Of a stretch of 64,000 nt of DNA, positions 3,161 to 54,871 are shown in pieces. The stretch spans positions 150,461 to 214,460 of the forward strand of contig JACPXH010000007.1 in the NCBI GenBank assembly GCA_016196625.1. The letters are read 5' to 3'. The stretch is from Candidatus Parcubacteria bacterium. GTDB taxonomy: Bacteria; Patescibacteriota; Minisyncoccia; JACPXH01. The first letter of the stretch is position 1. The number at the start of each line of letters is the position of its first letter. The notes under the pieces are model-generated. The model saw only the letters and a list, made by a program, of their open reading frames with translations. It did not search any database and was not told the origin of the DNA. The translations under genes were made by a program, and so were the position numbers.

Positions 3161-3303
3161 GGTTTGGTTGTTGGGGCCATGATAGCTGAACGTCAGGTGA
3201 TTTGGCAATAGGGCGGCTACAAAAAAGCAAAAAGTTTATACCCCGAGCCGGGTCGAGGGCAAGATGACAAGGCGCCGTTGTTCTTGAATTTTCACGGTCC
3301 CGC

Positions 3304-3337
3304 CCCGCTCGCTTCGGCGAGCGGGACTCTGCTTTTT
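3304..3337 (+). terminator. Plus-strand-oriented intrinsic terminator-like hairpin with no annotated + strand gene upstream
   Basis: Stem CCGCTCGC / GCGAGCGG (plus a C-G pair) with TTCG loop, followed by ACTCTGCTTTTT. Confidence 0.35.
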
Positions 3338-3353
3338 AGTATGCGCTATTGTT

Positions 3354-3389
3354 CCTCCGCTACAATGTATCGATACATTGTAGCGGAGG
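3354..3389. repeat. Perfect 36-bp palindrome CCTCCGCTACAATGTATCGATACATTGTAGCGGAGG (family copy 1)
   Basis: Exact reverse-complement symmetry, checked base by base. The 28-bp core is identical to those at 50002-50031 and 50525-50560. Confidence 0.9.
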
Positions 3390-9399: not shown

Positions 9400-9517
9400 T
9401 CCTAAAAGTTCAAATTTCAAAATCCAAATTTCAAATCAAGTTCAAAGCTTAAAATCCAAAACAGTTTTGGCCTTTGGATTTGATTTGAACTTTGAGCTTT
9501 GGCATTTGGATTTATTG
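9400..9517. repeat. AT-rich word-repeat hairpin element (CAAAT / TTCAAA family copy 1)
   Basis: Left arm TTCAAATTTCAAAATCCAAATTTCAAATCAAGTTCAAAG and an imperfect inverted partner GGCCTTTGGATTTGATTTGAACTTTGAGCTTTGGCATTTGGATTT. The element fills the trpS / tRNA-binding-protein intergenic space. Confidence 0.5.
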
Positions 9518-37896: not shown

Positions 37897-40800
37897 TTGG
37901 TTTTCGATCTTCATATGATCCGTATCAAGCGTCCCCCCAAGGGGAAAAAGCGCGACTCGCTCACCAAGCGTCTCTTTGCCGCAGGTGCTGCAGGGGTAAC
38001 CATGTTTACCGGCGGCGTCCTTGGAGTGCGTGCGGCCGGAACAGTCAAGCCGCCCTTCGCGCAGGTGCGGCTGCGCACGGATCGCGTTTCGGGTGCAGGG
38101 CGGACGCCGGGTGAGGCTGGCGCGGGTACGAAAATTTCTACAGAGGAGGAAGCGCGCATCAAGGCTGAAACCGGTCGCTTCTTGGGCGAACTGCGCAAAG
38201 TAGCAGGGGAGACTGACAGCCAGAGTTTCTTTGCCCGGGTGCTGAACATCTCTCCGGCCGAAGCCGGGTCAGACCTCAATGCTGCGATTCAGGATTTGTA
38301 TAACTCCGGCAATTTGACCCAGGCCGTGCAGAGCGTGCTGGCCAGCGGAGCATATACCCCCGATCAGGCAGCTGCCGCCCTTCGAGAAGCTGAAACAGCG
38401 GGCGTCATCCCTGCGGGAACGACGCTTGATATCGCCGTCAACCTCGGCGCAACGCCCGAGCAGGCGGCTGCGTACGCCCAGCCCTCCTACGTGCCATCAT
38501 CTGAGGCGGATGTCTACGTTCCGCCGCCTGCAGCTGCGGTGCTTCCCGCAGCACCCGTTGCCCCGATTATCCCGCCGCCGGCTGTGGAGTCCGGACCGCC
38601 GGTTTTACCGTCCGTGCCCGCCGCGGCGCGGACCCCCGAAGTGCCACCGCTTCCACCGCCGGTCATCCGCATTGATGAAGAGAGAGGCATCGGGCATGTG
38701 GCCATGCCCGCGGCGCCGGTCGTGCCGGTTGCCCGCGAGGAGCCGACCCCGACGCCTGAACGTACGGTGCAAACCGAAGGCGGGACGTTTATCGTGACGC
38801 CAGGAGGCGCGGTGTTAGATGCAAACCGGAATCCAACCCCCTACTCCGTTGATGCAGGCGGACAAGTGAGTTATCAGGGCACGCCGGTTGGTCGGCTCGA
38901 ATTCCAGCAGCCCGGTATTGAGGAGATGCCTCGAGAAGTCTTTATCCCTACTCCACCACCAGCGCCACCGGTCCAAGCTCCAGGACCCGTCATTATCGTC
39001 CCGCCGGGCGAAAGCATAGTCGTCCCGGAGGGCGAGAGCAGATTTGTGTTAACGCCGGACATCAAGCAGGCTATCCAGGACATCTACCAGAACGAGGGCC
39101 TTGATTCACTCACCAAAGCAGTGGGCGTTCAGATCAACAAGGGCGTGGTGAGTCCGGCCGATGCGGCCCAAGCGCTGCAAGCTGCTGGCATTCCTGTTGC
39201 AGACATTGCCTACATTGCCCGAAACCTCGGGGCCACGCCCGAGCAGATCGCGGCGCTGGTGCCGTCAGCTCCGCCTCCGCCAGCTAAACTGGAAGAGCCG
39301 ACGCTTCCTCCGCCGTCCGCTGCCCCGCTTCCCAGAGGCGCCGAACCCTCCGCACCGCCGGTAGAGATCGGCCCGCCCGTCTGGCAGATTACCCATCCCA
39401 CAGTCCCGGGCCTCACTGTTGACGTTGACGCCGATGGCAACTTCCGTCTGCCTGTTGATTCTGGACTGGGCGAGTTCTCGGGCGCCTTCGGCCAAGTGAA
39501 TAAAGGTACGCTCACCTATACAGTGCGTAGCACCAGCGGCACCGAACAAAGTGGTGATCTGCGGGCTGAAGGTTGGCTCATTGCCGCCGTGACTCCCGCC
39601 TCGCCGGCCAAGCCAGCTGCGCCAGCTCCGGCCCTTCCAACCCCTGCCCCAGTCTTTACCCTCCACATTGGGGATAAAACTTTTCAGATCGACCCCGAGA
39701 CCTTAATCGTCACCAAACCAGAAAGCGACCCTAATCAGTACGTGCTCTATCCAGCTGGTACACCTGGTCAGTACATCATTACAGTGAATGGAGTCTCTAC
39801 CTTTCGGTTAGACACCGCCACCGGCAACCTCACCCAGTTCACTCCCGCTGGCGAGACCAAACCCATTGGGCGTTTTACGCCGGGTGGCGCCGCTGGTCCT
39901 GGTAATACTTTTACGTTTACCCCGAATCCCCCTGCCACTACCACCCCGACATCAACCTCGCCTGTATCATTTCCCGGCGCAACGCCAACGACGACCGTTC
40001 CCGTCATACCCAGACCAGTTCCCCCGGGCGTGATCGGACCCAGTCAACCGCACGAGCTATGGACGAACGTCGTCATTGATAACCAGCGCTATAACCTCTA
40101 TCAAGACGGTGCCGTCAATGCCGTTGATGCGGCGGGCGGAGAAGTCGCGACGCCGTATGTCATTCACTACAACGAAAACGCTCAGAAGTATGAACTCTGG
40201 CGTGCTGCCAATCACGGTGAAACGGTATTTGCGATTCTCAACCCGAGCGGTCAGCTCGAGCAAACTTTCCATCTTTTTTTCAGCCCGGGTCCCTTCGGTA
40301 CCACCCTTCGGGTCAACGATCGTCCCTACCGGATCAATGCGGATGGCACGGTGCTGAATCCGCCCGGCGACACTCAGCGGTACTTTATGGATGTACGCGG
40401 GAACATCCATCTGAACGATCAATACGGTCCCTTCCTCTACCTTATTCTTGTGGACGGTACCGTCCGCGATGCTCAACATCGAACGGTTGGACGAGTAGAA
40501 CCCAGCGGTACTTTTGTTCCGACACCGGGATCGGTTGGCGCGCCTGTACCGGCCCTTCCAACCCCTGCCCCAGTCTTTACCCTCCACATTGGGGATAAAA
40601 CTTTTCAGATCGACCCCGAGACCTTAATCGTCACCAAACCAGAAAGCGACCCTAATCAATATATGCTGTATCCAGCCGGCACACCTGGTCAGTACATCAT
40701 TACAGTGAATGGGGTCTCTACCTTTCGGTTAGACACCACCAACGGCAACCTCACCCAGTTCACCCCAGCTGGTGAGACCAAACCCATTGGGCGCTTCACG

Positions 40801-43800
40801 CCCGATGGCGCCGTGGGTCCGGGCACTACTTTCACGTTTACCCCGAGCCCCGTCGCTACCACCACGCCAACGTCGACCGCGCCGATCTCTCCTGCGTCCA
40901 CTCCCGCGCAGCCAGCTGCCGGGCCTGCCACCGTTCCCCCGGCTGCAGAAGCCGCACCTTCAGTTCCTGCCGCTACCCCCGCTCTCCCCGAGGTGCGCGT
41001 GCGTATCAACGACGCGATCTACCGGATCATGCCCGACGGCACGGTGGTGAGCCCGCCGTCTGACCCGAACACCTACTCGGTGACCCGCAACCCTGACGGC
41101 ACCGCTGCGATCAGCCGCGAAGGGCAGGTGATGTATACGGTCAACGCCCAAGGCGAAGTCCGCACTCCCGACAACCAGACAGTGGGCCAGTTTGATGTGC
41201 CCAAGGCTGAAGTCGTAACCGACTACACCGCCGGCCGAGTTGACTACTACCTGCGTAAAGCCGAGAAAGTCGGCCAAACTGATGCCGCTACGATTCGGGA
41301 GCTCGCGGACAGTGGCGTCAGTCCCACCGTGATTGCGGAGCGTGCTCTTAAAGAGTGGGGCGGAGATGCGCGGCGGGTCGCGGTGGCGGCAGCGGAAGCC
41401 GGTGCTGCGCCTCACCTGATTGCCGAGGTTTTGAAAACGAAAGAATTGAAGGTGCAAAATCCAGACGGCACGAGTCGAACCGTGGACGCTTTTACCTTGG
41501 CTTTGGAGCAAGCAGTGGGGCAGGTAGCCGCGGTGCCGGAATCAAACCAAAGGCTGCAGGGGATGGGTTCGATTGCCGATTTTCTGCGCCGCGCTGGCAT
41601 CTCGGCCCAAGAAGCCAGAGATCGGCTCAAGGCCGCTGGTTTCACTGACGATCCCACGTCCATCCTGAGCGCTGTTGGTTACAGCGCCGAGGGGCTGGCC
41701 ACCACCTTCCCCGTAACTCCGACCCAAATTCGGGCCGTCAATGTGGACGGCACGTGGCTCGCGCTCTCGCCCGATGGGACGGTCTACATTCCGCAGGCTG
41801 GCAGCGCGGCTGAGCTCAAAGTGATTGACGGTGAGACCCGGATCCTGTTCAAGGACCGCACCGGGCGCATCGTACCGCTCCCCATAGCCCGGATCGAGCA
41901 GGTTTCAGACGTAGACCTCCTGCGTTTGGCGCAAGCCAAGTTTCAGGCCCAGGGGTTGACCCGGCCTCAAGCCAATGAGCGGATTTTTCCCCTGGCGGTT
42001 GCTGCCGGTTGGAGCGATCCCGGCCGGGTTATTCGGGCTGCGCTGGAAGCCGGCTTTTCTCCGACAGACATTGTGAGCGGGCTGGCCAGCATTGACAGCG
42101 CTCGCCGCGAGAACAATCAAGAGAGCCATTATCTGGAAGAGGGGATCATGGCGGCGCTCGATGCCGCGCGAAGTCCTGAAGCGCGGCAGGCGACTGCGGA
42201 TACGATCATCGCGGCCCTGCGCGAATCCGACCTCGGTCGCGAGCGGCTCGATGAGCTTATCCAGTACCTCGCCCCGCGGCTCAACGTGCCGGAAAGTCAG
42301 CTTCGCGAGCAGTTGGGGGTTAATCAGCCTTTGTATAAAGCGGCGTTTCGTCTCGAACTGGACCTACCTCGTTATCTTCCAGAATCGCTGCGGCAATCCC
42401 AGAAGGTATTCACTGGAAGATCGCTTCGGGTTATAAGTCAAGTCCCCATACACGAATACGCCGCCACGTTGACTTCGGTTTCCACTGGTCAGCAAACAGC
42501 GCCTGCTGTTACGCGCAAAAGTTCGCACGTCATTAAAATCGCCATTCCGGCAGAACTCAGGGCTGATCAATATCAGCTTACCATTACAATTGATGGTCAG
42601 GCGCAAACATTTCCCATAGAAGTGGAGCGCCCACTCCAAAAGGCCCAAGCGCCCGTGGAGGTTGTGCCCTTGACGTCAGTCGAACAGGCTGCGATTGCGT
42701 TCAGGACCACTCTGTGCACGAATTGCGCATCTGAAGGAGTGTTTAGCGGAGATCCCAATGACGCGAATAAACTCATTCATATCAGCAATACCAGAGATTT
42801 GGTGCGATCAACTGACGGCGGTAGGTCTTGGCACGCGTTGTCGATCGATAACGCCGCACAGTATCCGCGCGCCCAGGTCTTATATGTTGGCGATCCCAAA
42901 GTAGTGAGTTTACCCGATGGTTCATTTATAATCACCAGCCTCGGTAGCGATCATAATAAGAATTTTACTTTAGGCGGATTGATATACCGAGGCACCTACA
43001 CGGGCGGGCTTAACGCCACCTTTTTTCAAGACATCCCTTCAAATTTGCCGGCGAACCAAGATATCGTTGTGGATAGACCAATTTTGGCAGTCGATCAGAG
43101 AAACTCTGCCGTATATATTGCCGTCAATGGCGCCTGGTTTGGCGAAAGAGGAGAATCCGACTTCGAACATGCAATCTACTTCTCTCAGGACGGCGGTCAA
43201 ACATTTAAGAAGGGCAGGATCGGTCATGGACTCGCAATCCACTCGATGACAGTTGGTGCCGACGGGACGCTCTACGCCGCTCGTCTCGGCGAGCCGCATG
43301 AACTGTTCCGCTTTTCTTCTCTCGACCCGGTGCGGTATGAAGTGCTACCGTTACCGGGCCGTCATCAGACCTGGGAGGGTTCGGTAAGAATATCGACCAC
43401 CAGCCGACGTGCCTGGGTTGGCTACGAAGGTCCGGAAGTCATCGCCGATACTAGCCCAACAAGTCCTCATCAAGGGCGGTTGTATGCGGTGTGGTCGCAG
43501 TCCGAGCGGGTCGTTGATGATCAAAACTTTGAGTATAAGCACTATGGGTTTAACCATGACGTATTTGTCAGTTATTCCGACGATCGAGGCGTTAGTTGGT
43601 CTCCGCCAGCGAAGGTGAACGACGATATCGGATCCGGCGATCAAGTATTCCCGTCAGCCCGACTTGACACGAACGGTGCTCTTCACGTTGCCTTCTTCGA
43701 TCACCGGAATAATCAGAGTGACGCAGTGTTCGACGTGTACTATGCGAAGTCCACCGACGGTGTGAATTTTTCCAAGAATCTTAGGTTAAACGAGGAGCCG

Positions 43801-46800
43801 ATCCCAAACGAGTATGGCGGACGGTTCCTTGGCGACTACATAGATATGGTCATGCCATATCCGGATCGTGTCTATGTCGCATATCCAGACGCGCCACTGT
43901 TTGCCAATGGTAAACGTTCAACCATGGCAACGGCCGTGAAGTTTGTGGAGATTTCCCAGGCGGCGCTTGCGCCACTCATGCCGTCGAGGGGGGCTTTCAG
44001 CCTTGATCGTTGGCGCACAGCAGGAGAACGCATAGAGACACTCCATTCGCTTCTTGTATCAGGGTGGACGCCCGCAGAAATCATCCGAGCCCTTGCCGCG
44101 GTAGACGCATCTGCCAAGGCCGCAGGCCGCGAGACTCATTACCTCGAAGAGGGGATCATGGCGGCACTGGAAGCCGCGCCAAACCCAGAAGCGCGGCAGG
44201 CGACGGCGGATACGATCATCGCGGCTCTCGGCGAAGCGGGGTTGAGCCGGGAGCAGACGCAAGAGTTGATTCGGAATCTTGCCCCGCGGCTCAACATGAC
44301 CGAAGAACAGCTGCGTAGTGCATTGGGGATCGGCCAGCTTGCGCGTCAAACCTCTCGACTCACGCGACAAATGACCCGTCAGACTCGCCCTACCGTCCCG
44401 CGCGCGACACTCGTCAAAGTAGATGAGCCGGAGTTTGCCAAGCAAGAGTTGGTGTTGCCGCCCACACTGTTGCCCGCGCCAAACTCGCGCGATGTTCAGG
44501 GCTTTTTAGGGTCAGCTTCAAGCGAGGTGGCTTTCCAGCTTGTTTCACTCATTCGCGACCGGTTCCAGCTTGGGGCAAGCGCGTCGCGCCGCGGTTCGGT
44601 TGAACTGGGCGACGAGGTTACGATTACTCTCCAAGTCAAAGGCCAAGATGTTCCGCCCGACAAATTAGTTACGTTCGACGCCCTCGTGCCTTCAAAGTTC
44701 CGGTACGTGTCCGGGTCCTTAGTGGTCAACAATGTGCCATCGTCTGATCCGGAATTCATCCTCCGCACACCCTTCGCCACCGTCGTCGACGAAGAAACGC
44801 AGGTCCTCCGGCTTGAGCACGGGGTCTGGTCTTACGGAAACACCACGCGGACGTATCGGTTCCGAATGCGCGCTGATACTATCGGCCGGCCCGGCAATTT
44901 GGACGTGAAGGCGTATCTGGACGTTGGTCCGCAGTTGGCCCAGATTGCCGGGGTGGGTCCTTTCACCACGAGCGTGCGCACGAGCGGTCCGCGGCGAGAA
45001 GCCCAGCAGACAACGGAGCGCAACGACGAATTCTCCGGTTATGCCTTTGATCAAACGTTCTCCGGCGGCCGGACGCTGGGCGAAGCTCCGCTGCCCGGGC
45101 GGGCGGGCGAGTTGGTGCCGGGTGAAGCGAATCAGTTTATGCCCGCGCAGGCGATTGAACTTTCGCCGCACGAACGCAACACCATTTCGGTTCGCTATCA
45201 TTTTACGAAACGCTCGCCGGATGCCGCCAATACCCTGCGGCTCAAATACACCGTCGAACTGCCCGGAGAGGTCGAATACCTGTGGCGGTCAGCCCGAATT
45301 GACGGGGCGTTGATTGACACCGAGCCTCTCCGGACACTCCCCGAAGAGCGTACGCCGGCCGGGACGCGACTTGTTACGATAGTGGATCGAGAGACGCCGG
45401 TTGACGAACGGCCGCACGAACTTTCGTTTCAAATTTTTACCGCGGCTGCGCCAGAAACCCAGGCGCGCGCCCCTTTGGTGACGCAGCTGTGGGTTAACGA
45501 CAAGCTGGTCCGAAAGGATCGCTGGGAGCCGATTATCATCCGGGCAGCACAGCCCGCGCCGCCGCGAGACGCCGCGCCGGCTCCGGGCGCCCCTTCGGCG
45601 CCGCCCATATCTGAACCGCCCTCTCCGCCCACCAACTGGGAGCCGCGGTACGTCAGGTTCGACTCAAGCCTTGAGTTTTCCCGGCGCGAGGTGCGGGCTG
45701 GTGAGCGGGTTGACATTACGGCGCGGCTCGAGCGGATCGATTCCGGAGGCCCCATTGAGAATTTTCAATACCTTTTGGAGCTGTCTCCGGGATTACGATT
45801 CGTCGCGGATCAGGGCGTGTCAGTTGATTCTACGCAGCGCCTCGAGCCCGAGGTTTCCGAACGGAACGGCATCCAGCGAGTACGGGTTCGCATGCGGTTT
45901 CCGGCCGGAAGTACAAGGGCTACAGGGGATGTATCAGCTGGGTTCGGGGATCGGCCGACCACGTCAATCCGTTTTACCGCGCAGGCCGCGGCGGATGTAT
46001 CGCCGGGCGAGAAACTTTTGGTGGGTAAGTTTTCCGGCGACGGGTTGCAGCTTGGGCTTGACGCCGCGAATGTCTTGGTTCGCGCGCCTGAAGTCCAGCC
46101 TCGCTTTACCGGCGAGATGTTCACGATTCCTGCGGCCGAGGCGCGGCCGGGAGAAGCACTGGCGGTACAAATCCGACTCTTTCGTACTGATGCGGCGGGT
46201 CGGGTTGGAGATGTCGTTTATGAGCTGGAAGTGCCGGCTGGATTTGAGTATGTTACCGAGTCAGGCGGAGCATCAATTGATGGTCGGTCTCTTGCGGTCA
46301 CGGTGGTGTCTCGGACCGACGGCGCGCAGGTGGTGCGGACCGATTCGTTCTTTTCTCCCGGCGGCAACAATTCCCAGGCTATTACCGTGTTCCTGCGTGC
46401 GAAGTCAGATGTTCCCGCTGGCGAGAAAACCTTTGTGGGTCGGATTTCGGTCAGAAACCGTCAGGTCCTCGAACAGCGCACGAGCGTTCAGGTGCCGGAG
46501 CTGGCAACGGTTCGGATTGACCCGTTCCTGTTCTTCTATGGAAGAGCGACGGTGGGCGATGAGTTTACTGTCTATGCCGATCTCGGTCGTCGCGATACCG
46601 GCGGGCCGATCCCGCAGGTAGATTATCGTCTCCAACTGCCTCGCGGATTCGAATTTCTCCCCAACAGGTCCGATGTGTACTTTTGGGATACGGGCCGCTC
46701 CCAACCGCTCAACGCGGGCGTCTCGGACGGGGTCGTTACGGCCACAATCGCAAACTTTCCCGCCGGGCCGGGGGGGCGCACGATTCGATTTCGACTGCGC

Positions 46801-49113
46801 GCAACCGATACCGTGATACCGGGCGAGCACACGCTCCGGGGCGAGATTTCCGCCGCTGGCCGCGCGCTCGGGTCGGCGAGCGCCACCCTCACCGTTAGGG
46901 CCGCGCCCGAAGTGCGCTTTGATTCCAGCCTCGCGTTGTCTCAACTGGAGGTGGAAAACGGACAGTCGTTTGAACTGACCGCGTCTCTGACTCGCGTTGA
47001 TGACGGCGGGCCTGTTGAACGAGCCGAGTACAATCTGCAGGTGCCTGAAGGTTTTGTGCTGGCCCAAGTGCCTGATGCGATTACCTTTCGGGGAGCGACG
47101 GTGCTCATTGATTCGACTTCTTCGCCGGAGAACGGTTTACTGGTCGTGCGGCTGGAAAATATCCCCGCGCGCCAGCAGTCATTTGGCACTCCCGTGGTGG
47201 CGAACATCTTGCGTTTCAAGCTGCAGGCGGTTGGCGCCGCTCCCGGTGCGCAACAGTTCTCCGGCACGCTCTTTGCGTTGGAGCCCACGAGACGCGAATT
47301 GAGCACTGCCTCCGCTTCGATCAATGTCCGCCAGCCTCTGCCGCAGATCAGTGACGGCGTTCTGCAGCTTACCGAAGGGATTGTGGAGGCAGACCGTGTC
47401 TTTCGCGTCATCACCAGGTTCAGGCGCATAGATCGCAGCGATGACATTGAGCACTTCGGCTACGAGCTGCGTCTGCCTCAAGGGTTTCGGCTCGTGCCCG
47501 CTCAAGAGGGAGGCGGGGCAGAGCTTGATGGTCAGCAAGTAGCGGTGACGGTTTCGAGCACCACGCCAGACGGAGTGCAGATTATGCGCCTTGAGATTGA
47601 GCGTCTCACGCAGGCCGGGGCAGAACATCGGTTGAGATTTACGTTACGCGCTCCCAGCGAAGAAGGACAGTACTCTCTGGACGGAGGATTCTTTGTCGGC
47701 ACAAGCCCCGTCTTCAGCAGCAGCACGGTCGGCTTTGAAGTCCTGCAGTCGGTAGCCAACGTGAGGTTCAGAAATAGACTTGAGGCTTCTAGCGATCGCG
47801 TGGCCAACGATCAGGTTTTTGCGATAACTGCGCAACTCACGCGAGAAGATGCCGGCGACACGATCAGGCGCGCTCGGTATAGGCTTTATTTTCCGTACGG
47901 CTCCCGGTTCGTTGGCGGCCCGGAGGGGGTAACATTCAACGGTATGCCCATTGAGCCGCGCTTTATCACTACGTACTCGAGCCTCGGTAGTTACTACATA
48001 GATGTGGATTTAAGCGGCTATCCGACTGGCGCGGGAGTTACTTCACCGCTTGTCTTCCAGGTGAAGGCGCCGCCCGCGCTGATAGTGGGTACGCAGCAGT
48101 TTTTCGGCTCGCTCGTGCTCAATAACGATACCAATCGCGCGTACCAAGCCGACCCGCTCAACATCACCGTTGTACCGGCGCAGTCAGCCGGGCCGCAGCT
48201 GAGACCGTATGTTTCCGGTCCTTGGTCAGCCGTGGCAGCCGGCGATCAGTTTTATCTTGACGTGAATCTCCAGAGACTCGATGACGGGGACGTAATCCGA
48301 AATTTTGAATACGCCATCCATCTGCCCCGGGGGTTTGAGTACGCTCCATTCGTGCTGCAAGGGGGCAGAGAGGACAGGACAGTGGGGTTTGGCGATCAAT
48401 CTGTGCCCGTTGAAGTGGTCACTGATCAAAGCGGCACACAGGTTTTGAAGATTCGGGTTGACTACCCTGCGGGCATAACCTCGCGCGCTTTCGGCGTGCC
48501 GCTTCGGGCGACTGCGGACGTTCAAACTGGGACGGCGACTGTTTTGATCACGTTTTCTGCCGAAGGTCGGGAGCTGGCGAGAGCTGAAACGGCGATCAAC
48601 GTTGAACAAGCGCCAGTAGAGATTGCGTTTGAGCCGCGCGATCTGTTCCTGTGGGGGGCGGTGTCATATCCCAATACGCATGAAGCTAGGCCCGACTTAG
48701 AGAGTTTTGTGTACGCGCCGCTCGTCCGCTTGGACACCGGCGGCCCGATTCAAAACTTTGAGTACCGGTTGGTGCTGCCCGCTGGGTTTGCGTATGCGCC
48801 GGGCGAAGACAGCGTCTGGTTTGACGGCGCGCGAGTGCGGGCCGAGGCGATTGACGTTTCTACCGATATAGCTGGCAGGCAGACAGTGACGGTGAGGCTG
48901 GAGTATCCTGCTTCGAGGAGGCGGGAGCGCGGCGTACAAGTGAAAATTCGCTCCACTGCAGAGATCGCCCCGGGACAGAAGGCGTTTGCCGGTCAGGCAG
49001 TTGTTGACGGCCGCGTGCTTGAACCCCAATTTACCGCCACGGTCAACTTGGTTCCAGCCGGTCCGAACTCGGGCGGCGCCGGATTTTTTGACTCGCCGCA
49101 GCCGATGGGCTAG
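37897..49113 (+). CDS. Giant repeat-rich surface protein (3738 aa)
   Basis: Single uninterrupted ORF of 11.2 kb. Hydrophobic N-terminus. N-terminal region has repeated GATPEQAAAYA / GATPEQIAALV motifs and Pro-rich linkers. BNR/Asp-box repeats STDGGRSWHA, SQDGGQTFKKG, SDDRGVSWSP and STDGVNFSK (about 42700-43950) imply a sialidase-like beta-propeller. About 12 tandem ~150-aa modules share the pattern FDSSL.(S/L)..EV..G....TA.L.R.D.GGPI..F.Y.L.LP.GF.Y (about 45650-49080). Confidence 0.7.
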   Translation: MVFDLHMIRIKRPPKGKKRDSLTKRLFAAGAAGVTMFTGGVLGVRAAGTVKPPFAQVRLRTDRVSGAGRTPGEAGAGTKISTEEEARIKAETGRFLGELRKVAGETDSQSFFARVLNISPAEAGSDLNAAIQDLYNSGNLTQAVQSVLASGAYTPDQAAAALREAETAGVIPAGTTLDIAVNLGATPEQAAAYAQPSYVPSSEADVYVPPPAAAVLPAAPVAPIIPPPAVESGPPVLPSVPAAARTPEVPPLPPPVIRIDEERGIGHVAMPAAPVVPVAREEPTPTPERTVQTEGGTFIVTPGGAVLDANRNPTPYSVDAGGQVSYQGTPVGRLEFQQPGIEEMPREVFIPTPPPAPPVQAPGPVIIVPPGESIVVPEGESRFVLTPDIKQAIQDIYQNEGLDSLTKAVGVQINKGVVSPADAAQALQAAGIPVADIAYIARNLGATPEQIAALVPSAPPPPAKLEEPTLPPPSAAPLPRGAEPSAPPVEIGPPVWQITHPTVPGLTVDVDADGNFRLPVDSGLGEFSGAFGQVNKGTLTYTVRSTSGTEQSGDLRAEGWLIAAVTPASPAKPAAPAPALPTPAPVFTLHIGDKTFQIDPETLIVTKPESDPNQYVLYPAGTPGQYIITVNGVSTFRLDTATGNLTQFTPAGETKPIGRFTPGGAAGPGNTFTFTPNPPATTTPTSTSPVSFPGATPTTTVPVIPRPVPPGVIGPSQPHELWTNVVIDNQRYNLYQDGAVNAVDAAGGEVATPYVIHYNENAQKYELWRAANHGETVFAILNPSGQLEQTFHLFFSPGPFGTTLRVNDRPYRINADGTVLNPPGDTQRYFMDVRGNIHLNDQYGPFLYLILVDGTVRDAQHRTVGRVEPSGTFVPTPGSVGAPVPALPTPAPVFTLHIGDKTFQIDPETLIVTKPESDPNQYMLYPAGTPGQYIITVNGVSTFRLDTTNGNLTQFTPAGETKPIGRFTPDGAVGPGTTFTFTPSPVATTTPTSTAPISPASTPAQPAAGPATVPPAAEAAPSVPAATPALPEVRVRINDAIYRIMPDGTVVSPPSDPNTYSVTRNPDGTAAISREGQVMYTVNAQGEVRTPDNQTVGQFDVPKAEVVTDYTAGRVDYYLRKAEKVGQTDAATIRELADSGVSPTVIAERALKEWGGDARRVAVAAAEAGAAPHLIAEVLKTKELKVQNPDGTSRTVDAFTLALEQAVGQVAAVPESNQRLQGMGSIADFLRRAGISAQEARDRLKAAGFTDDPTSILSAVGYSAEGLATTFPVTPTQIRAVNVDGTWLALSPDGTVYIPQAGSAAELKVIDGETRILFKDRTGRIVPLPIARIEQVSDVDLLRLAQAKFQAQGLTRPQANERIFPLAVAAGWSDPGRVIRAALEAGFSPTDIVSGLASIDSARRENNQESHYLEEGIMAALDAARSPEARQATADTIIAALRESDLGRERLDELIQYLAPRLNVPESQLREQLGVNQPLYKAAFRLELDLPRYLPESLRQSQKVFTGRSLRVISQVPIHEYAATLTSVSTGQQTAPAVTRKSSHVIKIAIPAELRADQYQLTITIDGQAQTFPIEVERPLQKAQAPVEVVPLTSVEQAAIAFRTTLCTNCASEGVFSGDPNDANKLIHISNTRDLVRSTDGGRSWHALSIDNAAQYPRAQVLYVGDPKVVSLPDGSFIITSLGSDHNKNFTLGGLIYRGTYTGGLNATFFQDIPSNLPANQDIVVDRPILAVDQRNSAVYIAVNGAWFGERGESDFEHAIYFSQDGGQTFKKGRIGHGLAIHSMTVGADGTLYAARLGEPHELFRFSSLDPVRYEVLPLPGRHQTWEGSVRISTTSRRAWVGYEGPEVIADTSPTSPHQGRLYAVWSQSERVVDDQNFEYKHYGFNHDVFVSYSDDRGVSWSPPAKVNDDIGSGDQVFPSARLDTNGALHVAFFDHRNNQSDAVFDVYYAKSTDGVNFSKNLRLNEEPIPNEYGGRFLGDYIDMVMPYPDRVYVAYPDAPLFANGKRSTMATAVKFVEISQAALAPLMPSRGAFSLDRWRTAGERIETLHSLLVSGWTPAEIIRALAAVDASAKAAGRETHYLEEGIMAALEAAPNPEARQATADTIIAALGEAGLSREQTQELIRNLAPRLNMTEEQLRSALGIGQLARQTSRLTRQMTRQTRPTVPRATLVKVDEPEFAKQELVLPPTLLPAPNSRDVQGFLGSASSEVAFQLVSLIRDRFQLGASASRRGSVELGDEVTITLQVKGQDVPPDKLVTFDALVPSKFRYVSGSLVVNNVPSSDPEFILRTPFATVVDEETQVLRLEHGVWSYGNTTRTYRFRMRADTIGRPGNLDVKAYLDVGPQLAQIAGVGPFTTSVRTSGPRREAQQTTERNDEFSGYAFDQTFSGGRTLGEAPLPGRAGELVPGEANQFMPAQAIELSPHERNTISVRYHFTKRSPDAANTLRLKYTVELPGEVEYLWRSARIDGALIDTEPLRTLPEERTPAGTRLVTIVDRETPVDERPHELSFQIFTAAAPETQARAPLVTQLWVNDKLVRKDRWEPIIIRAAQPAPPRDAAPAPGAPSAPPISEPPSPPTNWEPRYVRFDSSLEFSRREVRAGERVDITARLERIDSGGPIENFQYLLELSPGLRFVADQGVSVDSTQRLEPEVSERNGIQRVRVRMRFPAGSTRATGDVSAGFGDRPTTSIRFTAQAAADVSPGEKLLVGKFSGDGLQLGLDAANVLVRAPEVQPRFTGEMFTIPAAEARPGEALAVQIRLFRTDAAGRVGDVVYELEVPAGFEYVTESGGASIDGRSLAVTVVSRTDGAQVVRTDSFFSPGGNNSQAITVFLRAKSDVPAGEKTFVGRISVRNRQVLEQRTSVQVPELATVRIDPFLFFYGRATVGDEFTVYADLGRRDTGGPIPQVDYRLQLPRGFEFLPNRSDVYFWDTGRSQPLNAGVSDGVVTATIANFPAGPGGRTIRFRLRATDTVIPGEHTLRGEISAAGRALGSASATLTVRAAPEVRFDSSLALSQLEVENGQSFELTASLTRVDDGGPVERAEYNLQVPEGFVLAQVPDAITFRGATVLIDSTSSPENGLLVVRLENIPARQQSFGTPVVANILRFKLQAVGAAPGAQQFSGTLFALEPTRRELSTASASINVRQPLPQISDGVLQLTEGIVEADRVFRVITRFRRIDRSDDIEHFGYELRLPQGFRLVPAQEGGGAELDGQQVAVTVSSTTPDGVQIMRLEIERLTQAGAEHRLRFTLRAPSEEGQYSLDGGFFVGTSPVFSSSTVGFEVLQSVANVRFRNRLEASSDRVANDQVFAITAQLTREDAGDTIRRARYRLYFPYGSRFVGGPEGVTFNGMPIEPRFITTYSSLGSYYIDVDLSGYPTGAGVTSPLVFQVKAPPALIVGTQQFFGSLVLNNDTNRAYQADPLNITVVPAQSAGPQLRPYVSGPWSAVAAGDQFYLDVNLQRLDDGDVIRNFEYAIHLPRGFEYAPFVLQGGREDRTVGFGDQSVPVEVVTDQSGTQVLKIRVDYPAGITSRAFGVPLRATADVQTGTATVLITFSAEGRELARAETAINVEQAPVEIAFEPRDLFLWGAVSYPNTHEARPDLESFVYAPLVRLDTGGPIQNFEYRLVLPAGFAYAPGEDSVWFDGARVRAEAIDVSTDIAGRQTVTVRLEYPASRRRERGVQVKIRSTAEIAPGQKAFAGQAVVDGRVLEPQFTATVNLVPAGPNSGGAGFFDSPQPMG

Positions 49114-49226: not shown

Positions 49227-49273
49227 AGATGAAGTAACGTTACTATGTATTGATATATAGTAACGTCTCATCT
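49227..49273. repeat. AT-rich imperfect inverted repeat between the giant gene and lemA
   Basis: AGATGAAGTAACGTTACTAT / ATAGTAACGTCTCATCT arms around the centre GTATTGATAT. It contains the ATGTAT half-site seen in the palindrome family. Confidence 0.4.
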
Positions 49274-49311: not shown

Positions 49312-49878
49312 ATGCCTATGAGCCTCACCTGGATTTTTAGCGTCGCGGCAGCGCTGGTCGTTGTTTGGTTTATCCTAGCCTATAACAGTTTGGTCCGGCG
49401 TCGGACACGGGTGGACGAAGGTTGGGCCGACATTGATGTTCAGTTAAAACGGCGCTACGACCTCATTCCGAATTTGGTCGAGACCGTGAAGGGTTACGCG
49501 GCTCACGAGTCTCAAGTTTTTGAGCGGGTTACGTCGGCGCGGGCCGCGGCCATGGGAGCGCAAAGCCCGCAGCAAAAGGCCGCGGCCGAAGGCATGCTGG
49601 CCGGAGCCCTGAAGAGTTTGTTTGCCGTGGCTGAGGCTTATCCCCAATTGCGCGCGGCAGAAAACTTTACGCGCTTGCAGCAAGACCTCGCAGATACCGA
49701 AGACAAAATCCAGGCCTCGCGGCGCTTTTATAACGGCGTCGTGCGCGACTACAACATTGCAACCCAAGTTTTCCCCACAAGTATCGTGGCGGGGCTGTTC
49801 GGTTTCACCAAGCGCGAATTCTTCGAGATTGAAGAAGAGCGCGCTGAAGAGCGCTCGCCGGTGAAAGTTTCGTTCTGA
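49312..49878 (+). CDS. lemA: LemA-family membrane protein
   Basis: N-terminal TM helix, then YNSLVRRRTRVDEGWADIDVQLKRRYDLIPNLVETVKGYAAHE, typical of LemA. Confidence 0.8.
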   Translation: MPMSLTWIFSVAAALVVVWFILAYNSLVRRRTRVDEGWADIDVQLKRRYDLIPNLVETVKGYAAHESQVFERVTSARAAAMGAQSPQQKAAAEGMLAGALKSLFAVAEAYPQLRAAENFTRLQQDLADTEDKIQASRRFYNGVVRDYNIATQVFPTSIVAGLFGFTKREFFEIEEERAEERSPVKVSF

Positions 49879-50001: not shown

Positions 50002-50031
50002 GCGCTACAATGTATCGATACATTGTAGCGC
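50002..50031. repeat. Perfect 30-bp palindrome GCGCTACAATGTATCGATACATTGTAGCGC (family copy 2), 18 bp upstream of the TrpR-like gene
   Basis: Exact symmetry. Same 28-bp core as copies 1 and 3, with different but still complementary flanks. Confidence 0.9.
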
Positions 50032-50048
50032 ATAGACTTCATGCGATT

Positions 50049-50513
50049 ATGCCACAGATATCCAGGTTCAAATTGAGCGCCCGGGCCGAGCAAGAGCTAT
50101 CCGAAACATTCCTGGAAAGCTTGGTACTGATTCGTGATAAAGAATTTGCTCGGCAGGTGGTGGCTGATCTTTTAACCCCAACCGAGAAAGTCATGTTGGG
50201 CAAACGGATTCTGATCGCAGTTCTCTTGCAGGAAGGGTACAGTTACCGAGATGTTGTGAGGTCGTTGAAGGTGGCACCGGGTACGGTCAACAACATTCGC
50301 CTTACGCTCGCGCGGTCAGGCGCGGGATTTAAGGGTTTGGTCGGCTTACTTGGGGGCTCTCGTGTCGCCCAACGAGAGCGGTATCGCCGCGAAGATCGTC
50401 GAGAGTTGATCGCGAATAAGATCTATCAGATCATCGACGCCTTGCGGTTGCCGGTGAAAGGGTCGAAGACCGATATGGTGCGGTGGCGTAAAGCTTTGGA
50501 TAAATTGGCGTAA
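50049..50513 (+). CDS. TrpR-like (YerC/YecD family) helix-turn-helix protein
   Basis: LESLVLIRDKEFARQVVADLLTPTEKVMLGKRILIAVLLQEGYSYRDVVRSLKVAPGTVNNIRLTL aligns with the B. subtilis YerC pattern (..QGYTY..I....GAS.ATISRV). Start chosen at ATG 50049, because the upstream in-frame codons are translation of the palindrome. Confidence 0.65.
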   Translation: MPQISRFKLSARAEQELSETFLESLVLIRDKEFARQVVADLLTPTEKVMLGKRILIAVLLQEGYSYRDVVRSLKVAPGTVNNIRLTLARSGAGFKGLVGLLGGSRVAQRERYRREDRRELIANKIYQIIDALRLPVKGSKTDMVRWRKALDKLA

Positions 50514-50524
50514 TGAGACGAGTC

Positions 50525-50560
50525 CGACCGCTACAATGTATCGATACATTGTAGCGGTCG
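50525..50560. repeat. Perfect 36-bp palindrome CGACCGCTACAATGTATCGATACATTGTAGCGGTCG (family copy 3), 12 bp downstream of the TrpR-like gene
   Basis: Exact symmetry with the identical 28-bp core. Confidence 0.9.
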
Positions 50561-50642
50561 TTGAAACACGGGGTCTTGCCTGCATAAGTTCAGATACATT
50601 TTACATTTGGCACTCTCGTCTTCTGTGTGGTAAAGTAATGGC

Positions 50643-51542
50643 ATGGCCACCCTTTACACCCACATTGATCAGAACATTGCCAAGACTTGGGCGCTTATGG
50701 GAGCGTTCTTGGCGCTGGTGATTGCGATCGGGTTTCTGTTTGCGCAAGCCATGGGCGAGCCAGCAATTCTTTACATCGCGGTGGGCTTTTCGCTCTTCAT
50801 GAATTTCCTCTCGTATTGGTTTGCCGACAAGCTCGTGCTCTCGCTTTCCCGCGCCCGCGAGATCAAGCGTGAAGATCACGAAGAGCTTTTTCGGATAGTT
50901 GAGAACTTGGTCATCGCCGCGGGCCTGCCCATGCCCAAGTTGTATATAATAGAAAGTGCGGCCTCGAACGCCTTTGCAACGGGCCGGAACCCCGAGCATG
51001 CAGCAGTTGCGGTTACGCGGGGGTTGCTCGAGCGTTTGAACCGGCAAGAACTTGAAGGCGTACTCTCACACGAACTTGCTCACATCGGTAACCGCGACAT
51101 GCTGGTGGCCACCATCGCGGTCATCCTCGCGGGATTCATCGCGATCCTCGCCGATTTCTTCCTGCGCATTAGTTTCTATGGTGGCGGCCGGCGCGAAAGC
51201 CGCGAAGGCGGCAACGCCCTTATGGCCTTGGCTATTGTCGCGGCGATTCTTGCGCCGATTGCAGCCACGCTTCTGCGCCTCGCCATTTCCCGAAAGCGCG
51301 AGTTCCTCGCGGACGCATCGGGCGCGCTGCTCACCCGCAACCCCGAAGCGCTTGCGTCAGCCCTCGTCAAAATTTCCACCGATTCCGATCCCTTGGAGAC
51401 CGCCCGCGTCCAGACCGCGCATCTGTTCATCGACGATCCTTTCAAGAACCGTCATGGCAAGACGCGGTGGTTTATCAAACTGTTCATGACCCATCCGCCC
51501 ATAGAAGAACGTATACGAGCATTGCGCGGTATGGAGGTATAA
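50643..51542 (+). CDS. htpX: Zinc metalloprotease HtpX (M48)
   Basis: HELAHIGNRD zinc-binding motif. TM topology and a conserved C-terminus (FMTHPPIEERIRALRGM). Confidence 0.85.
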   Translation: MATLYTHIDQNIAKTWALMGAFLALVIAIGFLFAQAMGEPAILYIAVGFSLFMNFLSYWFADKLVLSLSRAREIKREDHEELFRIVENLVIAAGLPMPKLYIIESAASNAFATGRNPEHAAVAVTRGLLERLNRQELEGVLSHELAHIGNRDMLVATIAVILAGFIAILADFFLRISFYGGGRRESREGGNALMALAIVAAILAPIAATLLRLAISRKREFLADASGALLTRNPEALASALVKISTDSDPLETARVQTAHLFIDDPFKNRHGKTRWFIKLFMTHPPIEERIRALRGMEV

Positions 51543-54560: not shown

Positions 54561-54645
54561 GGTGAGGTGGCCGAGCGGTCTAAGGCGCACGCTTGGAGCG
54601 CGTGTATACCGAAAGGTATCGTGGGTTCGAATCCCACCCTCACCG
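54561..54645 (+). tRNA. tRNA-Ser (anticodon GGA), long variable arm
   Basis: Acceptor GGTGAGG / CCTCACC. D-arm GCCGAGCGGTCTAAGGCG. Anticodon stem CACGC / GCGTG with loop TTGGAGC. Variable arm TATACCGAAAGGTATC. T-arm GTGGG-TTCGAAT-CCCAC. CCA not encoded. Confidence 0.8.
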
Positions 54646-54871
54646 CATTATACTTTCTTTGGCCATCTCTTGATGGTTAAAGAAAGTATAAATAGGGTAC
54701 GGTGGGATTCGAAGGGTAGTTCTGCAACGCAAACTGCTTTGCGTTGCAGAACACCCGGGCTGCGGAGGAGGAGCGGAGCATGTGCCGCAGGCACGGCGAA
54801 GCGACGGGGGAGAAGGAATCCCACCCTCACCGCCAGTGTATCCTTTCATGTTTTTGCGATTACGTTGGCCT

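What the first reader, a model, noticed from the sequence alone, without database searches (positions are those of the whole stretch)
50002..50560. A TrpR/YerC-like regulator gene is bracketed by two perfect 30-36 bp palindromes that share an identical 28-bp core
Copy 2 (50002-50031) lies 18 bp upstream and copy 3 (50525-50560) 12 bp downstream of the 465-bp TrpR-like gene. Both contain CGCTACAATGTATCGATACATTGTAGCG exactly. The flanks differ in sequence (G...C versus GAC...GTC) yet each keeps perfect dyad symmetry. This pattern is expected for a selected hairpin/cruciform or a dimeric operator, not for neutral sequence. Two explanations fit: the palindromes are the operator of the encoded repressor (the downstream copy doubling as a terminator), or the gene plus palindromes form a mobile cassette. 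Perfect palindromes over 30 bp are rare by chance. The palindrome also generates spurious ORFs (MYRYIVA...) on both strands.
Basis: seen in the sequence. Interest (0 to 1): 0.7.

Follow-up and report, generated by a model that had tools for sequence, protein, structure and literature searches.

The report
Palindrome-bracketed TrpR-like regulator gene
A small TrpR/YerC-type regulator gene in a Parcubacteria genome has the same 28-bp palindrome just before its start and just after its stop. This layout recurs with lineage-specific palindromes in most of 63 related loci across the Candidate Phyla Radiation, so the palindrome is probably the regulator's own binding site.

Summary
The exact 28-bp core CGCTACAATGTATCGATACATTGTAGCG occurs three times in the window, with none expected by chance. 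One copy lies upstream of a 154-aa TrpR/YerC-like gene and one lies downstream of it. A third sits between ychF and rpsF.

The new result is comparative. Of 63 loci encoding relatives across Patescibacteria, 51 carry a near-perfect 22-28-bp palindrome both upstream and downstream of the gene. Median distances are 10 nt before the ATG and 6 nt after the stop. The two copies in a locus match each other (20.2/22) but differ between loci (12.2/22). They change together in conserved synteny and track variants of the recognition helix.

The downstream copy persists when the next gene is convergent. It has no T-tract, and no target-site duplications or transposase are present.

Best reading: the palindrome is the cognate operator of the encoded dimeric repressor, as for TrpR and HisR. 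The upstream copy would autoregulate. The downstream copy is a second operator whose role (loop, roadblock or insulator) is only inferred.

The mobile-cassette and canonical-terminator readings are not supported. I found no prior description. I rate it a new variant of a known kind, with moderately high interest.

The parts
50002..50031 (.). Upstream palindrome (copy 2). It is a 30-bp perfect dyad, GCGCTACAATGTATCGATACATTGTAGCGC, ending 17 nt before the ATG. It is the probable autoregulatory operator.
   Evidence: Orthologous copies lie at the same position in L002 and in L061, L062 and L064.
50049..50513 (+). TrpR/YerC-like regulator gene (154 aa). It has a TrpR fold at about residues 1-100 plus a long C-terminal helical extension (92-132 and 140-153).
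   Evidence: Pfam PF01371, 28 bits. The profile hits the YerC/HisR-like structures 3frw, 3g1c and 3kor at E 5e-13 to 1e-11. The AF2 model has pLDDT 80.7. Foldseek target-normalised TM is 0.73-0.83 to YerC-like chains and 0.64-0.75 to E. coli TrpR.
50525..50560 (.). Downstream palindrome (copy 3). It is a 36-bp perfect dyad starting 11 nt after the stop codon. It is a probable second operator. It lies 47 nt upstream of the htpX -35-like hexamer.
   Evidence: The orthologous copy in L002 carries a compensatory flank change, CGAC/GTCG to CGTC/GACG.
3354..3389 (.). Solitary copy 1. It is a 36-bp perfect dyad with the same 28-bp core and different outer flanks (CCTC/GAGG). It lies 4 nt after the ychF stop (minus strand) and about 150-190 nt upstream of rpsF.
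49237..49266 (.). Uncertain: a degenerate related quasi-palindrome, ACGTTACTATGTATT|GATATATAGTAACGT. Its 22-bp core has 4 mismatches to the main core. It ends 45 nt upstream of the lemA ATG and overlaps a promoter-like site.
   Evidence: It is not conserved in L002, so its function is doubtful.
50593..50603 (-). Uncertain: an isolated half-site, TAAAATGTATC (1 mismatch), abutting the htpX -35-like hexamer.
   Evidence: It is the only extra 11-mer hit, against 0.27 hits expected by chance in the whole window. It lies in a stretch absent from L002.

Best explanation
The palindrome is the cognate DNA operator of the TrpR/YerC-like protein encoded between its two copies. By homology with TrpR and HisR, a protein dimer would bind the 22-28-bp dyad, one recognition helix per 11-nt half-site (TACAATGTATC). 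The upstream copy ends 17 nt before the start codon here (family median 10 nt). It would therefore overlap the promoter, transcription start or short leader and give negative autoregulation. The downstream copy starts 11 nt after the stop (family median 6 nt). It is a second operator that belongs to the regulator gene itself, not to the neighbouring gene's promoter. Its most likely roles are cooperative bridging with the upstream site or a protein roadblock. Bridging would form a loop of about 485-526 bp, possibly through the C-terminal helical extension that the long forms possess. A roadblock would insulate the regulator gene from read-through in these compact genomes. Solitary copies, such as the one between ychF and rpsF, would be further regulon sites. 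SHOWN by computation: the exact repeats, the TrpR fold, the family-wide bracket layout, co-variation of the two copies with each other and with the recognition helix in conserved synteny, independence from neighbour identity and orientation, and the absence of T-tracts, target-site duplications and helical phasing. INFERRED: that the protein binds the palindrome, repression at the upstream site, and any specific role for the downstream site.
For: There are three exact 28-bp copies with none expected by chance. The protein is TrpR/YerC-like by Pfam, PDB profile and fold. [quoted passage not shown] Across 59 loci, 81% of upstream windows and 65% of downstream windows reach a dyad score of at least 9/11, against 1.9% of 3,540 background windows. 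Both copies are present in 47 of 59 loci, plus all 4 extra loci of the window's clade. Up/down identity is 20.2/22 within a locus and 12.2/22 between loci. Both copies diverge in parallel in conserved synteny. In lemA-X-htpX the cores are TACAATGTATCGATACATTGTA, then TTCCGATGTATCGATACATCGGAA, then TTCAATGTAATGATACATTGAA at 90, 67 and 59% protein identity. The same holds in folD-X-gyrA and X-recA. Recognition-helix variants track the motif classes. Three paralogs in one genome each have their own palindrome (L035, L045, L050). The downstream copy is kept where the next gene is convergent (L004, L028, L030, L049, L054, L060). The distance from copy 3 to the conserved htpX promoter-like site differs between the window and L002, while its distance to the regulator's stop codon is nearly the same in the window and L002. 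Solitary copies are all intergenic, and several lie 2-14 nt before a start codon, for example folD in L011. Short forms lacking the C-terminal helix (L019, L021, L031) have only the upstream copy.
Against: There is no binding data. No convincing sigma-70 promoter overlaps the upstream copies: a score of at least 8/12 occurs at 19% of upstream copies against 6% of random positions, and none is predicted at copy 2. How repression would work is therefore unproven. The centre-to-centre distances show no helical phasing (Rayleigh p about 0.4), which gives no positive support for looping. In this lineage the dyad is perfect over 36 bp, longer than a TrpR-type dimer footprint. Its outer flanks differ between copies yet stay complementary, including a compensatory change between the window and L002. 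That pattern is more typical of selection on a hairpin than on base-specific contacts. Co-variation of helix and motif is confounded by phylogeny. The short-form versus long-form contrast rests on a single clade.
Confidence: 0.7

Rival explanations
1. The palindromes act only as nucleic-acid hairpins, independently of the encoded protein. They would be RNA hairpins at the mRNA 5' and 3' ends (terminator, stabiliser or RNase III site) or DNA cruciforms.
For: The hairpins are perfect and very stable: -29.5, -21.6 and -29.5 kcal/mol, with z from -4.7 to -7.6. The outer flanks differ between copies but remain complementary: CCTC/GAGG, CGAC/GTCG, and CGTC/GACG in L002. Compensatory differences between up and down copies number 8 in the core, where about 1 is expected from independent changes by my own estimate. 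Copies 1 and 3 and the L001 copy start 4-11 nt after stop codons, and two lie between convergent units.
Against: No T-tract follows the downstream copies (2.64 T per 10 nt against 2.76 expected). Arm lengths are the same upstream and downstream (13.1 against 13.3, p=0.35). Sequence, not just pairing, is shared by the two copies of a locus, and an AATG...CATT-type core recurs across distant lineages, including an AT-rich contig with the identical 22-mer. One-sided differences outnumber compensatory ones 49 to 8. Many AT-rich versions would be weak hairpins. A stable hairpin abutting the start codon would hinder translation of the regulator. L004 and L061 have a separate GC-rich hairpin after the palindrome. 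This reading does not explain why the element is tied to this one gene family.
Confidence: 0.12
2. The gene plus its two palindromes is a mobile or duplicative cassette, analogous to REP/RAYT or to a minimal element with palindromic ends. Solitary copies would be dispersed ends.
For: The bracket layout with solitary copies elsewhere resembles RAYT genes flanked by REPs (recalled from memory). Paralogs are multiple per genome and neighbourhoods are diverse across the family. The HTH shows weak similarity to transposase HTH domains: HTH_38 and HTH_23 below cut-off, and IS630 at 16-18 bits against a cut-off of 100. CTAC...GTAG lies at the feet of the core.
Against: The protein is an all-helical TrpR fold of 154 aa with no catalytic domain. 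There are no target-site duplications (at most 2 of 46 loci with 4 nt or more). The position is stable within lemA-X-htpX, folD-X-gyrA and X-recA while protein and palindromes diverge in place. Copy number is low: one solitary exact copy in 64 kb and about 12 in roughly 0.5 Mb of loci. The core is absent from viral contigs and from 185,579 representative genomes, with a single hit in the metagenome collection.
Confidence: 0.05
3. The palindromes are operators, but for a different trans-acting protein. The TrpR-like gene is merely a conserved target.
For: No binding data link the protein to the site. The 36-bp dyad is longer than a TrpR-type footprint.
Against: The palindrome sequence changes from lineage to lineage in step with the adjacent protein's recognition helix, and three paralogs in one genome each have their own site. 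A separate factor would have to co-diversify with every paralog. The dyad length and architecture fit TrpR/HisR operators.
Confidence: 0.08

Closest known systems
HisR (B. subtilis YerC) and related TrpR-family repressors of Firmicutes (PMC9413887)
   Same: It is the closest sequence and fold relative (3frw, 3g1c and 3kor top both the profile and the Foldseek searches). It is a small HTH protein of the same family (HisR has a solved TrpR-like structure, and HisR/TrpR operators are dyad-symmetric). Its operators are about 20-bp palindromes with lineage-specific consensus. A site upstream of its own gene, implying autoregulation, is seen in about half of genomes.
   Different: HisR proteins are under 100 aa, whereas this family is mostly 134-154 aa with an added C-terminal helical region. 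The HisR motif cacTTTAnnnnnnTAAAgtg does not match the palindromes here. HisR regulons are his biosynthesis and transport genes, and no his genes neighbour these loci. No downstream second site bracketing the gene is described for HisR. The window protein fails the TIGR02531 cut-off (19.2 against 42.2 bits).
E. coli TrpR and its trpR/trpEDCBA/aroH operators
   Same: The fold is the same (target-normalised TM 0.64-0.75). The operator is palindromic, about 20 bp, and overlaps the promoter. The repressor regulates its own gene. Tandem binding of dimers is known (PDB 1TRR title).
   Different: Sequence similarity is only marginal (E about 0.2; TIGR01321 is far below its cut-off). The TrpR motif TGTAcTnGTnnACnAgTACA differs. 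The co-repressor is unknown here. trpR has no operator after its stop codon (my own knowledge).
Two-operator loop systems: lambda CI OL-OR, LacI O1-O2/O3, GalR OE-OI (recalled from established literature)
   Same: A repressor uses a primary operator plus a distant auxiliary operator. In lambda the cI gene lies between the two operator regions.
   Different: Those proteins belong to other families, with demonstrated tetramer or octamer bridging. Bridging is only inferred here, no helical phasing is seen, and the auxiliary site sits precisely at the 3' end of the regulator's own gene.
REP elements flanking RAYT genes (recalled from literature)
   Same: A gene is bracketed by its own lineage-specific palindromic repeats, and further copies occur in intergenic spaces, often after stop codons.
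   Different: RAYTs are HUH/Y1 transposase-like enzymes, and REPs number tens to hundreds per genome. Here the protein is a TrpR-fold HTH without a catalytic domain, and copies are few.

Membership tests
TrpR family (Pfam PF01371 / TrpR fold) | Sequence match to PF01371 at or above the gathering score | tested here: met
   The score is 28.0 bits against a cut-off of 27, which is borderline. All 30 homologs carry a precomputed PF01371 hit.
TrpR family (Pfam PF01371 / TrpR fold) | All-helical TrpR fold with the HTH as helices D-E | tested here: met
   In the AF2 model, residues 11-89 have pLDDT of about 90. The top 39 Foldseek PDB hits are all YerC-like or TrpR chains.
TrpR family (Pfam PF01371 / TrpR fold) | Intertwined homodimer that binds a dyad-symmetric operator of about 20 bp | not testable with these tools
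   A 22-28-bp dyad sits next to the gene in most loci, which fits. Oligomeric state and binding need experiments or multimer modelling.
YerC/YecD = HisR subfamily (NCBIfam TIGR02531) | Score at or above the curated cut-off of 42.2 bits | tested here: not met
   The window protein scores 19.2 bits. Relatives straddle the cut-off: L010 51.1, L019 45.1, L006 39.7 and L057 34.7.
YerC/YecD = HisR subfamily (NCBIfam TIGR02531) | Operator consensus cacTTTAnnnnnnTAAAgtg and control of his genes | tested here: not met
   The palindromes here (TACAATGTATCGATACATTGTA and its variants) do not fit that consensus. No histidine genes were recognised among the neighbour families that recur across loci; a 4-locus family only provisionally read as histidine-phosphatase-like was not checked against HisJ.
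Canonical intrinsic (Rho-independent) terminator | Stable GC-rich hairpin | tested here: met
   In this lineage the hairpins fold at -21.6 to -29.5 kcal/mol. The AT-rich family members are much weaker by sequence inspection.
Canonical intrinsic (Rho-independent) terminator | U/T-tract immediately 3' of the hairpin | tested here: not met
   None of the three copies was called by the terminator scan. Family-wide the tails hold 2.64 T per 10 nt against 2.76 expected.
Transposable element / IS-like cassette | Encoded transposase or recombinase catalytic domain | tested here: not met
   Only a TrpR fold plus helices is present.
Transposable element / IS-like cassette | Target-site duplications and variable insertion sites among close relatives | tested here: not met
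   No consistent duplications were found. Synteny is conserved at 59-90% protein identity.
REP/RAYT system | HUH/Y1 RAYT protein and tens to hundreds of dispersed REP copies | tested here: not met
   The protein is not HUH/Y1. There is one solitary exact copy in 64 kb. A whole-genome count is not available.

The most novel reading that the evidence does not exclude
The long-form YerC-like proteins of Patescibacteria are a distinct 'self-bracketing' repressor class. A higher-order oligomer, formed through the C-terminal helix, occupies matching operators at both ends of its own gene. It forms a loop of about 485 bp or a pair of roadblocks that autoregulates the gene and insulates it from neighbouring transcription in very compact genomes. 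The family (over 2,000 clusters at 50% identity) would be a major, rapidly diversifying regulator family of these bacteria with a readable one-protein-one-palindrome code.
Probability: 0.25. Interest if true: 0.75.

Novelty: new variant of a known kind. Interest (0 to 1): 0.6.

Why it matters
Gene regulation in the Candidate Phyla Radiation is almost unstudied, and these bacteria are rarely cultivated. If the reading is right, it assigns a probable DNA target to a large regulator family. That family has 2,161 clusters at E<=1e-10, many lineages, and up to three paralogs per genome. The target can be read directly from the sequence next to each gene. This would allow regulon prediction from metagenome-assembled genomes. 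Examples here are lemA/htpX, folD and recA in other lineages, and rpsF/ychF for the solitary copy.

The family also offers a natural library of dozens to thousands of cognate regulator-operator pairs. Such a library could be used to derive a recognition code for the TrpR fold or to build orthogonal repressors.

The consistent second operator at the 3' end of the regulator's own gene is unusual. It is a concrete, testable case for looping or roadblock insulation in minimal genomes.

Tried and rejected
1. A scan of 185,579 representative genomes for the 20-mer ACAATGTATCGATACATTGT gave 0 hits. Viral contigs also gave 0. Metagenomes gave 1 hit, L001. The exact core is therefore rare and lineage-restricted, not a widespread repeat.

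2. Canonical terminator. Neither copy was called by the scan, and there is no T-tract enrichment or arm-length difference family-wide.

3. Helical phasing of the two sites as a signature of looping. None was found, with Rayleigh p of about 0.4-0.9 for periods of 10-11.3 bp. This is uninformative rather than contrary at about 485 bp.

4. Sigma-70 promoter overlapping the upstream copy. There is no consistent -35 at a fixed distance. TTGACC lies only 13 nt from the TACAAT in the left arm in the window, so the promoter is unresolved.

5. Downstream copy as the operator of the next gene's promoter. This is rejected as a general explanation. Seventeen of 57 downstream neighbours are convergent and the copy is still present. 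The distance to the conserved htpX promoter-like site varies between the window and L002.

6. Target-site duplications. None were found.

7. Known RNA family. Rfam reports only two tRNAs in the window.

8. The weak site upstream of lemA (49237-49266) as a conserved regulon site. It is not conserved in L002.

9. Literature. No paper in the held library links Patescibacteria, Saccharibacteria or Parcubacteria with TrpR/YerC or with such palindromes. The only related work found is the HisR study and a LexA study in Patescibacteria cited.

10. dif/Xer sites, PadR (ATGT-N8-ACAT), LacI-type (TGnAAnCGnTTnCA) and NrdR boxes were compared from memory only. Spacing or copy number did not fit, so they were not pursued.

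Full report
**1. The observation**

The window holds three exact copies of CGCTACAATGTATCGATACATTGTAGCG, at 3358-3385, 50003-50030 and 50529-50556. No match occurred in any of 100 dinucleotide-preserving shuffles, even with three mismatches allowed. Each copy is the centre of a longer perfect palindrome:
- 36 bp at 3354-3389;
- 30 bp at 50002-50031;
- 36 bp at 50525-50560.

The outer flanks differ between copies (CCTC/GAGG, G/C, CGAC/GTCG), yet each copy stays self-complementary.

The gene between copies 2 and 3 is 50049-50513 (154 aa). Seventeen nt separate copy 2 from the ATG, and 11 nt separate the stop from copy 3. The MYRYIVA ORFs are by-products of the ATG inside the palindrome.

**2. 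The gene**

- Pfam gives Trp_repressor at 28.0 bits, just above the cut-off of 27.
- A profile of 29 homologs finds the YerC/HisR-like crystal structures 3frw, 3g1c and 3kor at E 5e-13 to 1e-11. E. coli TrpR is found only at E of about 0.2.
- An AlphaFold2 model has mean pLDDT 80.7, and about 90 over residues 11-89. It shows the five TrpR-like helices, followed by a long helix (92-132) and a terminal helix (140-153) of lower confidence.
- The top 39 Foldseek hits in the PDB are all YerC-like or TrpR chains. Target-normalised TM is 0.73-0.83 for YerC-like chains and 0.64-0.75 for E. coli TrpR.
- The window protein fails the curated cut-off of NCBIfam TIGR02531 (yecD_yerC), with 19.2 against 42.2 bits. 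Some relatives pass.

The protein is therefore a divergent, C-terminally extended relative of YerC/HisR, not a member of that equivalog.

The identical protein is on record from a Candidatus Parcubacteria MAG on a 216,792-bp contig. The neighbours are lemA (49312-49878) and an M48 htpX-type protease gene (50643-51542).

**3. Relatives**

*Close relatives.* The 90%-identical ortholog (L002) has the same giant-ORF-lemA-X-htpX synteny. It carries the palindrome at both positions. Upstream it is CTACAATGTATCGATACATTGTAG, 18 nt before the ATG. Downstream it is a 36-bp dyad with one central mismatch, and its flank CGTC/GACG differs from the window's CGAC/GTCG by a compensatory pair.

A 59% relative (L004) has a different palindrome, TCTAATGTATTAATACATTAGA. 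It is again present both 9 nt before the ATG and 25 nt after the stop, although the next gene is convergent.

*Wider survey.* A pattern scan of one genome per GTDB species returned 56 further loci, all from Patescibacteria-type MAGs. A palindrome scan of the gene flanks showed the same layout almost everywhere:
- Both copies are present in 47 of 59 loci.
- Median distances are 10 nt (IQR 5-14) from the 22-bp core to the ATG, and 6 nt (IQR 1-15) from the stop to the core.
- The median centre-to-centre spacing is 485 bp.
- A dyad score of at least 9/11 occurs in 81% of upstream and 65% of downstream 92-bp windows, against 1.9% of 3,540 background windows from the same loci.
- Dyad symmetry is high out to 13-14 bp from the centre, then falls to background.

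*The window's own clade.* Four more loci (L061-L064) behave the same way, and lemA-X-htpX synteny is kept down to 59% identity. Both flanking copies changed in parallel:
- window and L002: TACAATGTATCGATACATTGTA;
- L064 (67%): TTCCGATGTATCGATACATCGGAA;
- L061/L062 (59%): TTCAATGTAATGATACATTGAA;
- L063 (55%): TCTAATATACTAGTATATTAGA.

**4. The two copies are tied to the protein, not to the neighbours**

- Up/down identity within a locus averages 20.2/22, against 12.2/22 between loci.
- Within syntenic groups (folD-X-gyrA, X-recA, lemA-X-htpX) the pair diverges together. The motif classes follow variants of the predicted recognition helix. For example, VSVSTVN(G/H)VN goes with GATGTTTTAAAACATC, and VS(T/V)(T/S)TV(T/S)xVN goes with AATGTATTAATACATT. 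KMSK(A/T)T goes with CAATAGAC or CAGTAGG, and RVSPSTIARIW goes with ACTACGATAT.
- One Gottesmanbacteria MAG has three paralogs with three different palindromes (L035, L045, L050).
- Neighbouring genes are diverse: FolD in 6 loci, RecA in 5, GyrA in 3, HtpX, RseP, Frr and others. The downstream neighbour is convergent in 17 of 57 loci, and the downstream copy is usually still present there.
- In the window, the htpX promoter-like site TTGGCA-18-TGgTAAAGT is conserved in L002. Its distance to copy 3 differs by a ~24-nt indel, while the distance from copy 3 to the regulator's stop codon is nearly the same in the window and L002.

The downstream copy therefore belongs to the regulator gene.

**5. 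Mechanism**

*What is known for the family.* TrpR-family proteins bind dyad-symmetric operators of about 20 bp as dimers. [quoted passage not shown]

*Most economical reading.* The palindrome is the cognate operator of the encoded protein, and the upstream copy mediates autorepression. This is inferred from its position within 0-25 nt of the start codon in most loci.

*The downstream copy.* What it does is not established. I consider two options:
- Cooperative bridging with the upstream site. The only hint is that the short forms (104-108 aa; L019, L021, L031, L025) lack both the C-terminal helices and the downstream copy. By my own hypergeometric arithmetic p is about 0.001, but this is one clade, so effectively one observation.
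- A protein roadblock or insulator between tightly packed genes. In several loci the palindromes nearly fill the intergenic spacers.

No helical phasing supports looping. No consistent sigma-70 -35 element was found.

*Solitary copies.* These are all intergenic. They include the window copy at 3354-3389, L001, L011 (10 nt before folD), L040, L042, L053, L055 and L056. They fit a small regulon, although some lie between convergent genes.

**6. Rivals**

*Hairpin-only function.* This is favoured by three things: the stability of the stems, the complementary but non-identical outer flanks in this lineage, and an excess of compensatory differences (8 in the core). Against it:
- there are no T-tracts and no up/down arm-length difference;
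- one-sided differences dominate, 49 to 8;
- sequence is conserved, including the identical 22-mer in an AT-rich contig;
- L004 and L061 carry separate GC-rich hairpins downstream of the palindrome;
- the element is exclusively associated with one gene family.

A dual role, operator plus hairpin, in this GC-rich lineage remains possible.

*Mobile cassette.* This is disfavoured by the absence of any catalytic domain, the absence of target-site duplications, stable synteny with in-situ divergence and low copy number.

*A different trans-acting factor.* This is unlikely because the site co-diversifies with each paralog.

**7. Novelty**

The protein family and the idea of a palindromic autoregulatory operator are known. 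Three things were not found in the searchable literature:
- a large Patescibacteria-centred, C-terminally extended subfamily, with 2,161 clusters at 50% identity at E<=1e-10;
- the near-universal bracketing of the gene by two matching operators;
- the lineage-specific pairing of protein and palindrome.

I class it as a new variant of a known kind. The absence from the held library is not proof that it has never been described.

**8. Verdict**

- The operator interpretation is supported (confidence about 0.7). The role of the second site is open.
- The terminator and mobile-cassette readings are not supported.
- Interest is 0.6.

Noticed in passing
window 3304-3337 (+): A canonical intrinsic terminator (CCCGCTCGC-TTCG-GCGAGCGGG followed by CTGCTTTTT) is oriented for the + strand, in a spacer whose flanking genes (rpsF, ychF) are both on the - strand. 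This suggests an unannotated + strand transcript at about 3210-3337. Rfam found nothing there.
   Followed up: partly
window 50607-50636 (+); L002 about 10530-10562; L061 about 3570-3605: The htpX promoter-like element (TTGGCA-18-TGgTAAAGT) ends 6 nt before the ATG and is conserved in relatives. The htpX mRNA is therefore probably leaderless.
   Followed up: partly
window 50593-50603 (-): An isolated half-site, TAAAATGTATC (1 mismatch), directly abuts the htpX -35. It lies inside a ~24-nt stretch missing from L002. It is the only extra 11-mer hit, against 0.27 expected by chance.
   Followed up: partly
window 49237-49266; L061 2198-2239: A different long palindrome sits upstream of lemA in two lineages. 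In the window it is the quasi-palindrome ACGTTACTATGTATT|GATATATAGTAACGT. In L061/L062 it is the 38-42-bp AGTTTCCTAATTATATCACGGTCGTGATATAATTAGGAAAGT. Neither is conserved in L002. They could be sites of another regulator or terminators of the upstream gene.
   Followed up: partly
window 54626-54713: A 42-nt inverted repeat (81% complementary) has as its left arm the 3' end of the tRNA at 54561-54645. The right arm is thus an inverted partial tRNA copy. It may be an integration scar or a terminator.
   Followed up: no
window 37897-49113 (+): A 3,738-aa ORF with long internal repeats lies immediately upstream of lemA. It is conserved as a 3,936-aa gene in L002 and has no Pfam hit on record there.
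   Followed up: no
window 9406-9513: A 49-nt low-complexity inverted repeat of AAATTTCAAA-type units, 73% complementary.
   Followed up: no
L009, L014, L018, L038, L052; L005, L011, L028, L036, L048, L054: There are recurrent gene associations. recA lies directly downstream of the regulator in 5 Microgenomates-type loci. folD is adjacent in 6 loci, and in L011 a perfect solitary palindrome lies 10 nt before the folD start. These hint at subfamily-specific targets.
   Followed up: partly
L035, L045, L050 (JACQJU01, one Gottesmanbacteria MAG): One genome holds three paralogs of the regulator, each with its own distinct palindrome.
   Followed up: partly
L010, L013, L015, L016, L020, L026, L028 and others: About 20 loci come from records titled 'uncultured Gammaproteobacteria bacterium', although they carry this otherwise Patescibacteria-restricted gene family. 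The MAGs are probably mislabelled.
   Followed up: no
L001 925-948: An AT-rich 2.6-kb metagenome contig carries the identical 22-mer core within TTACAATGTATCGATACATTGTAA. It lies between two convergent ORFs, and no regulator gene is on the contig.
   Followed up: partly
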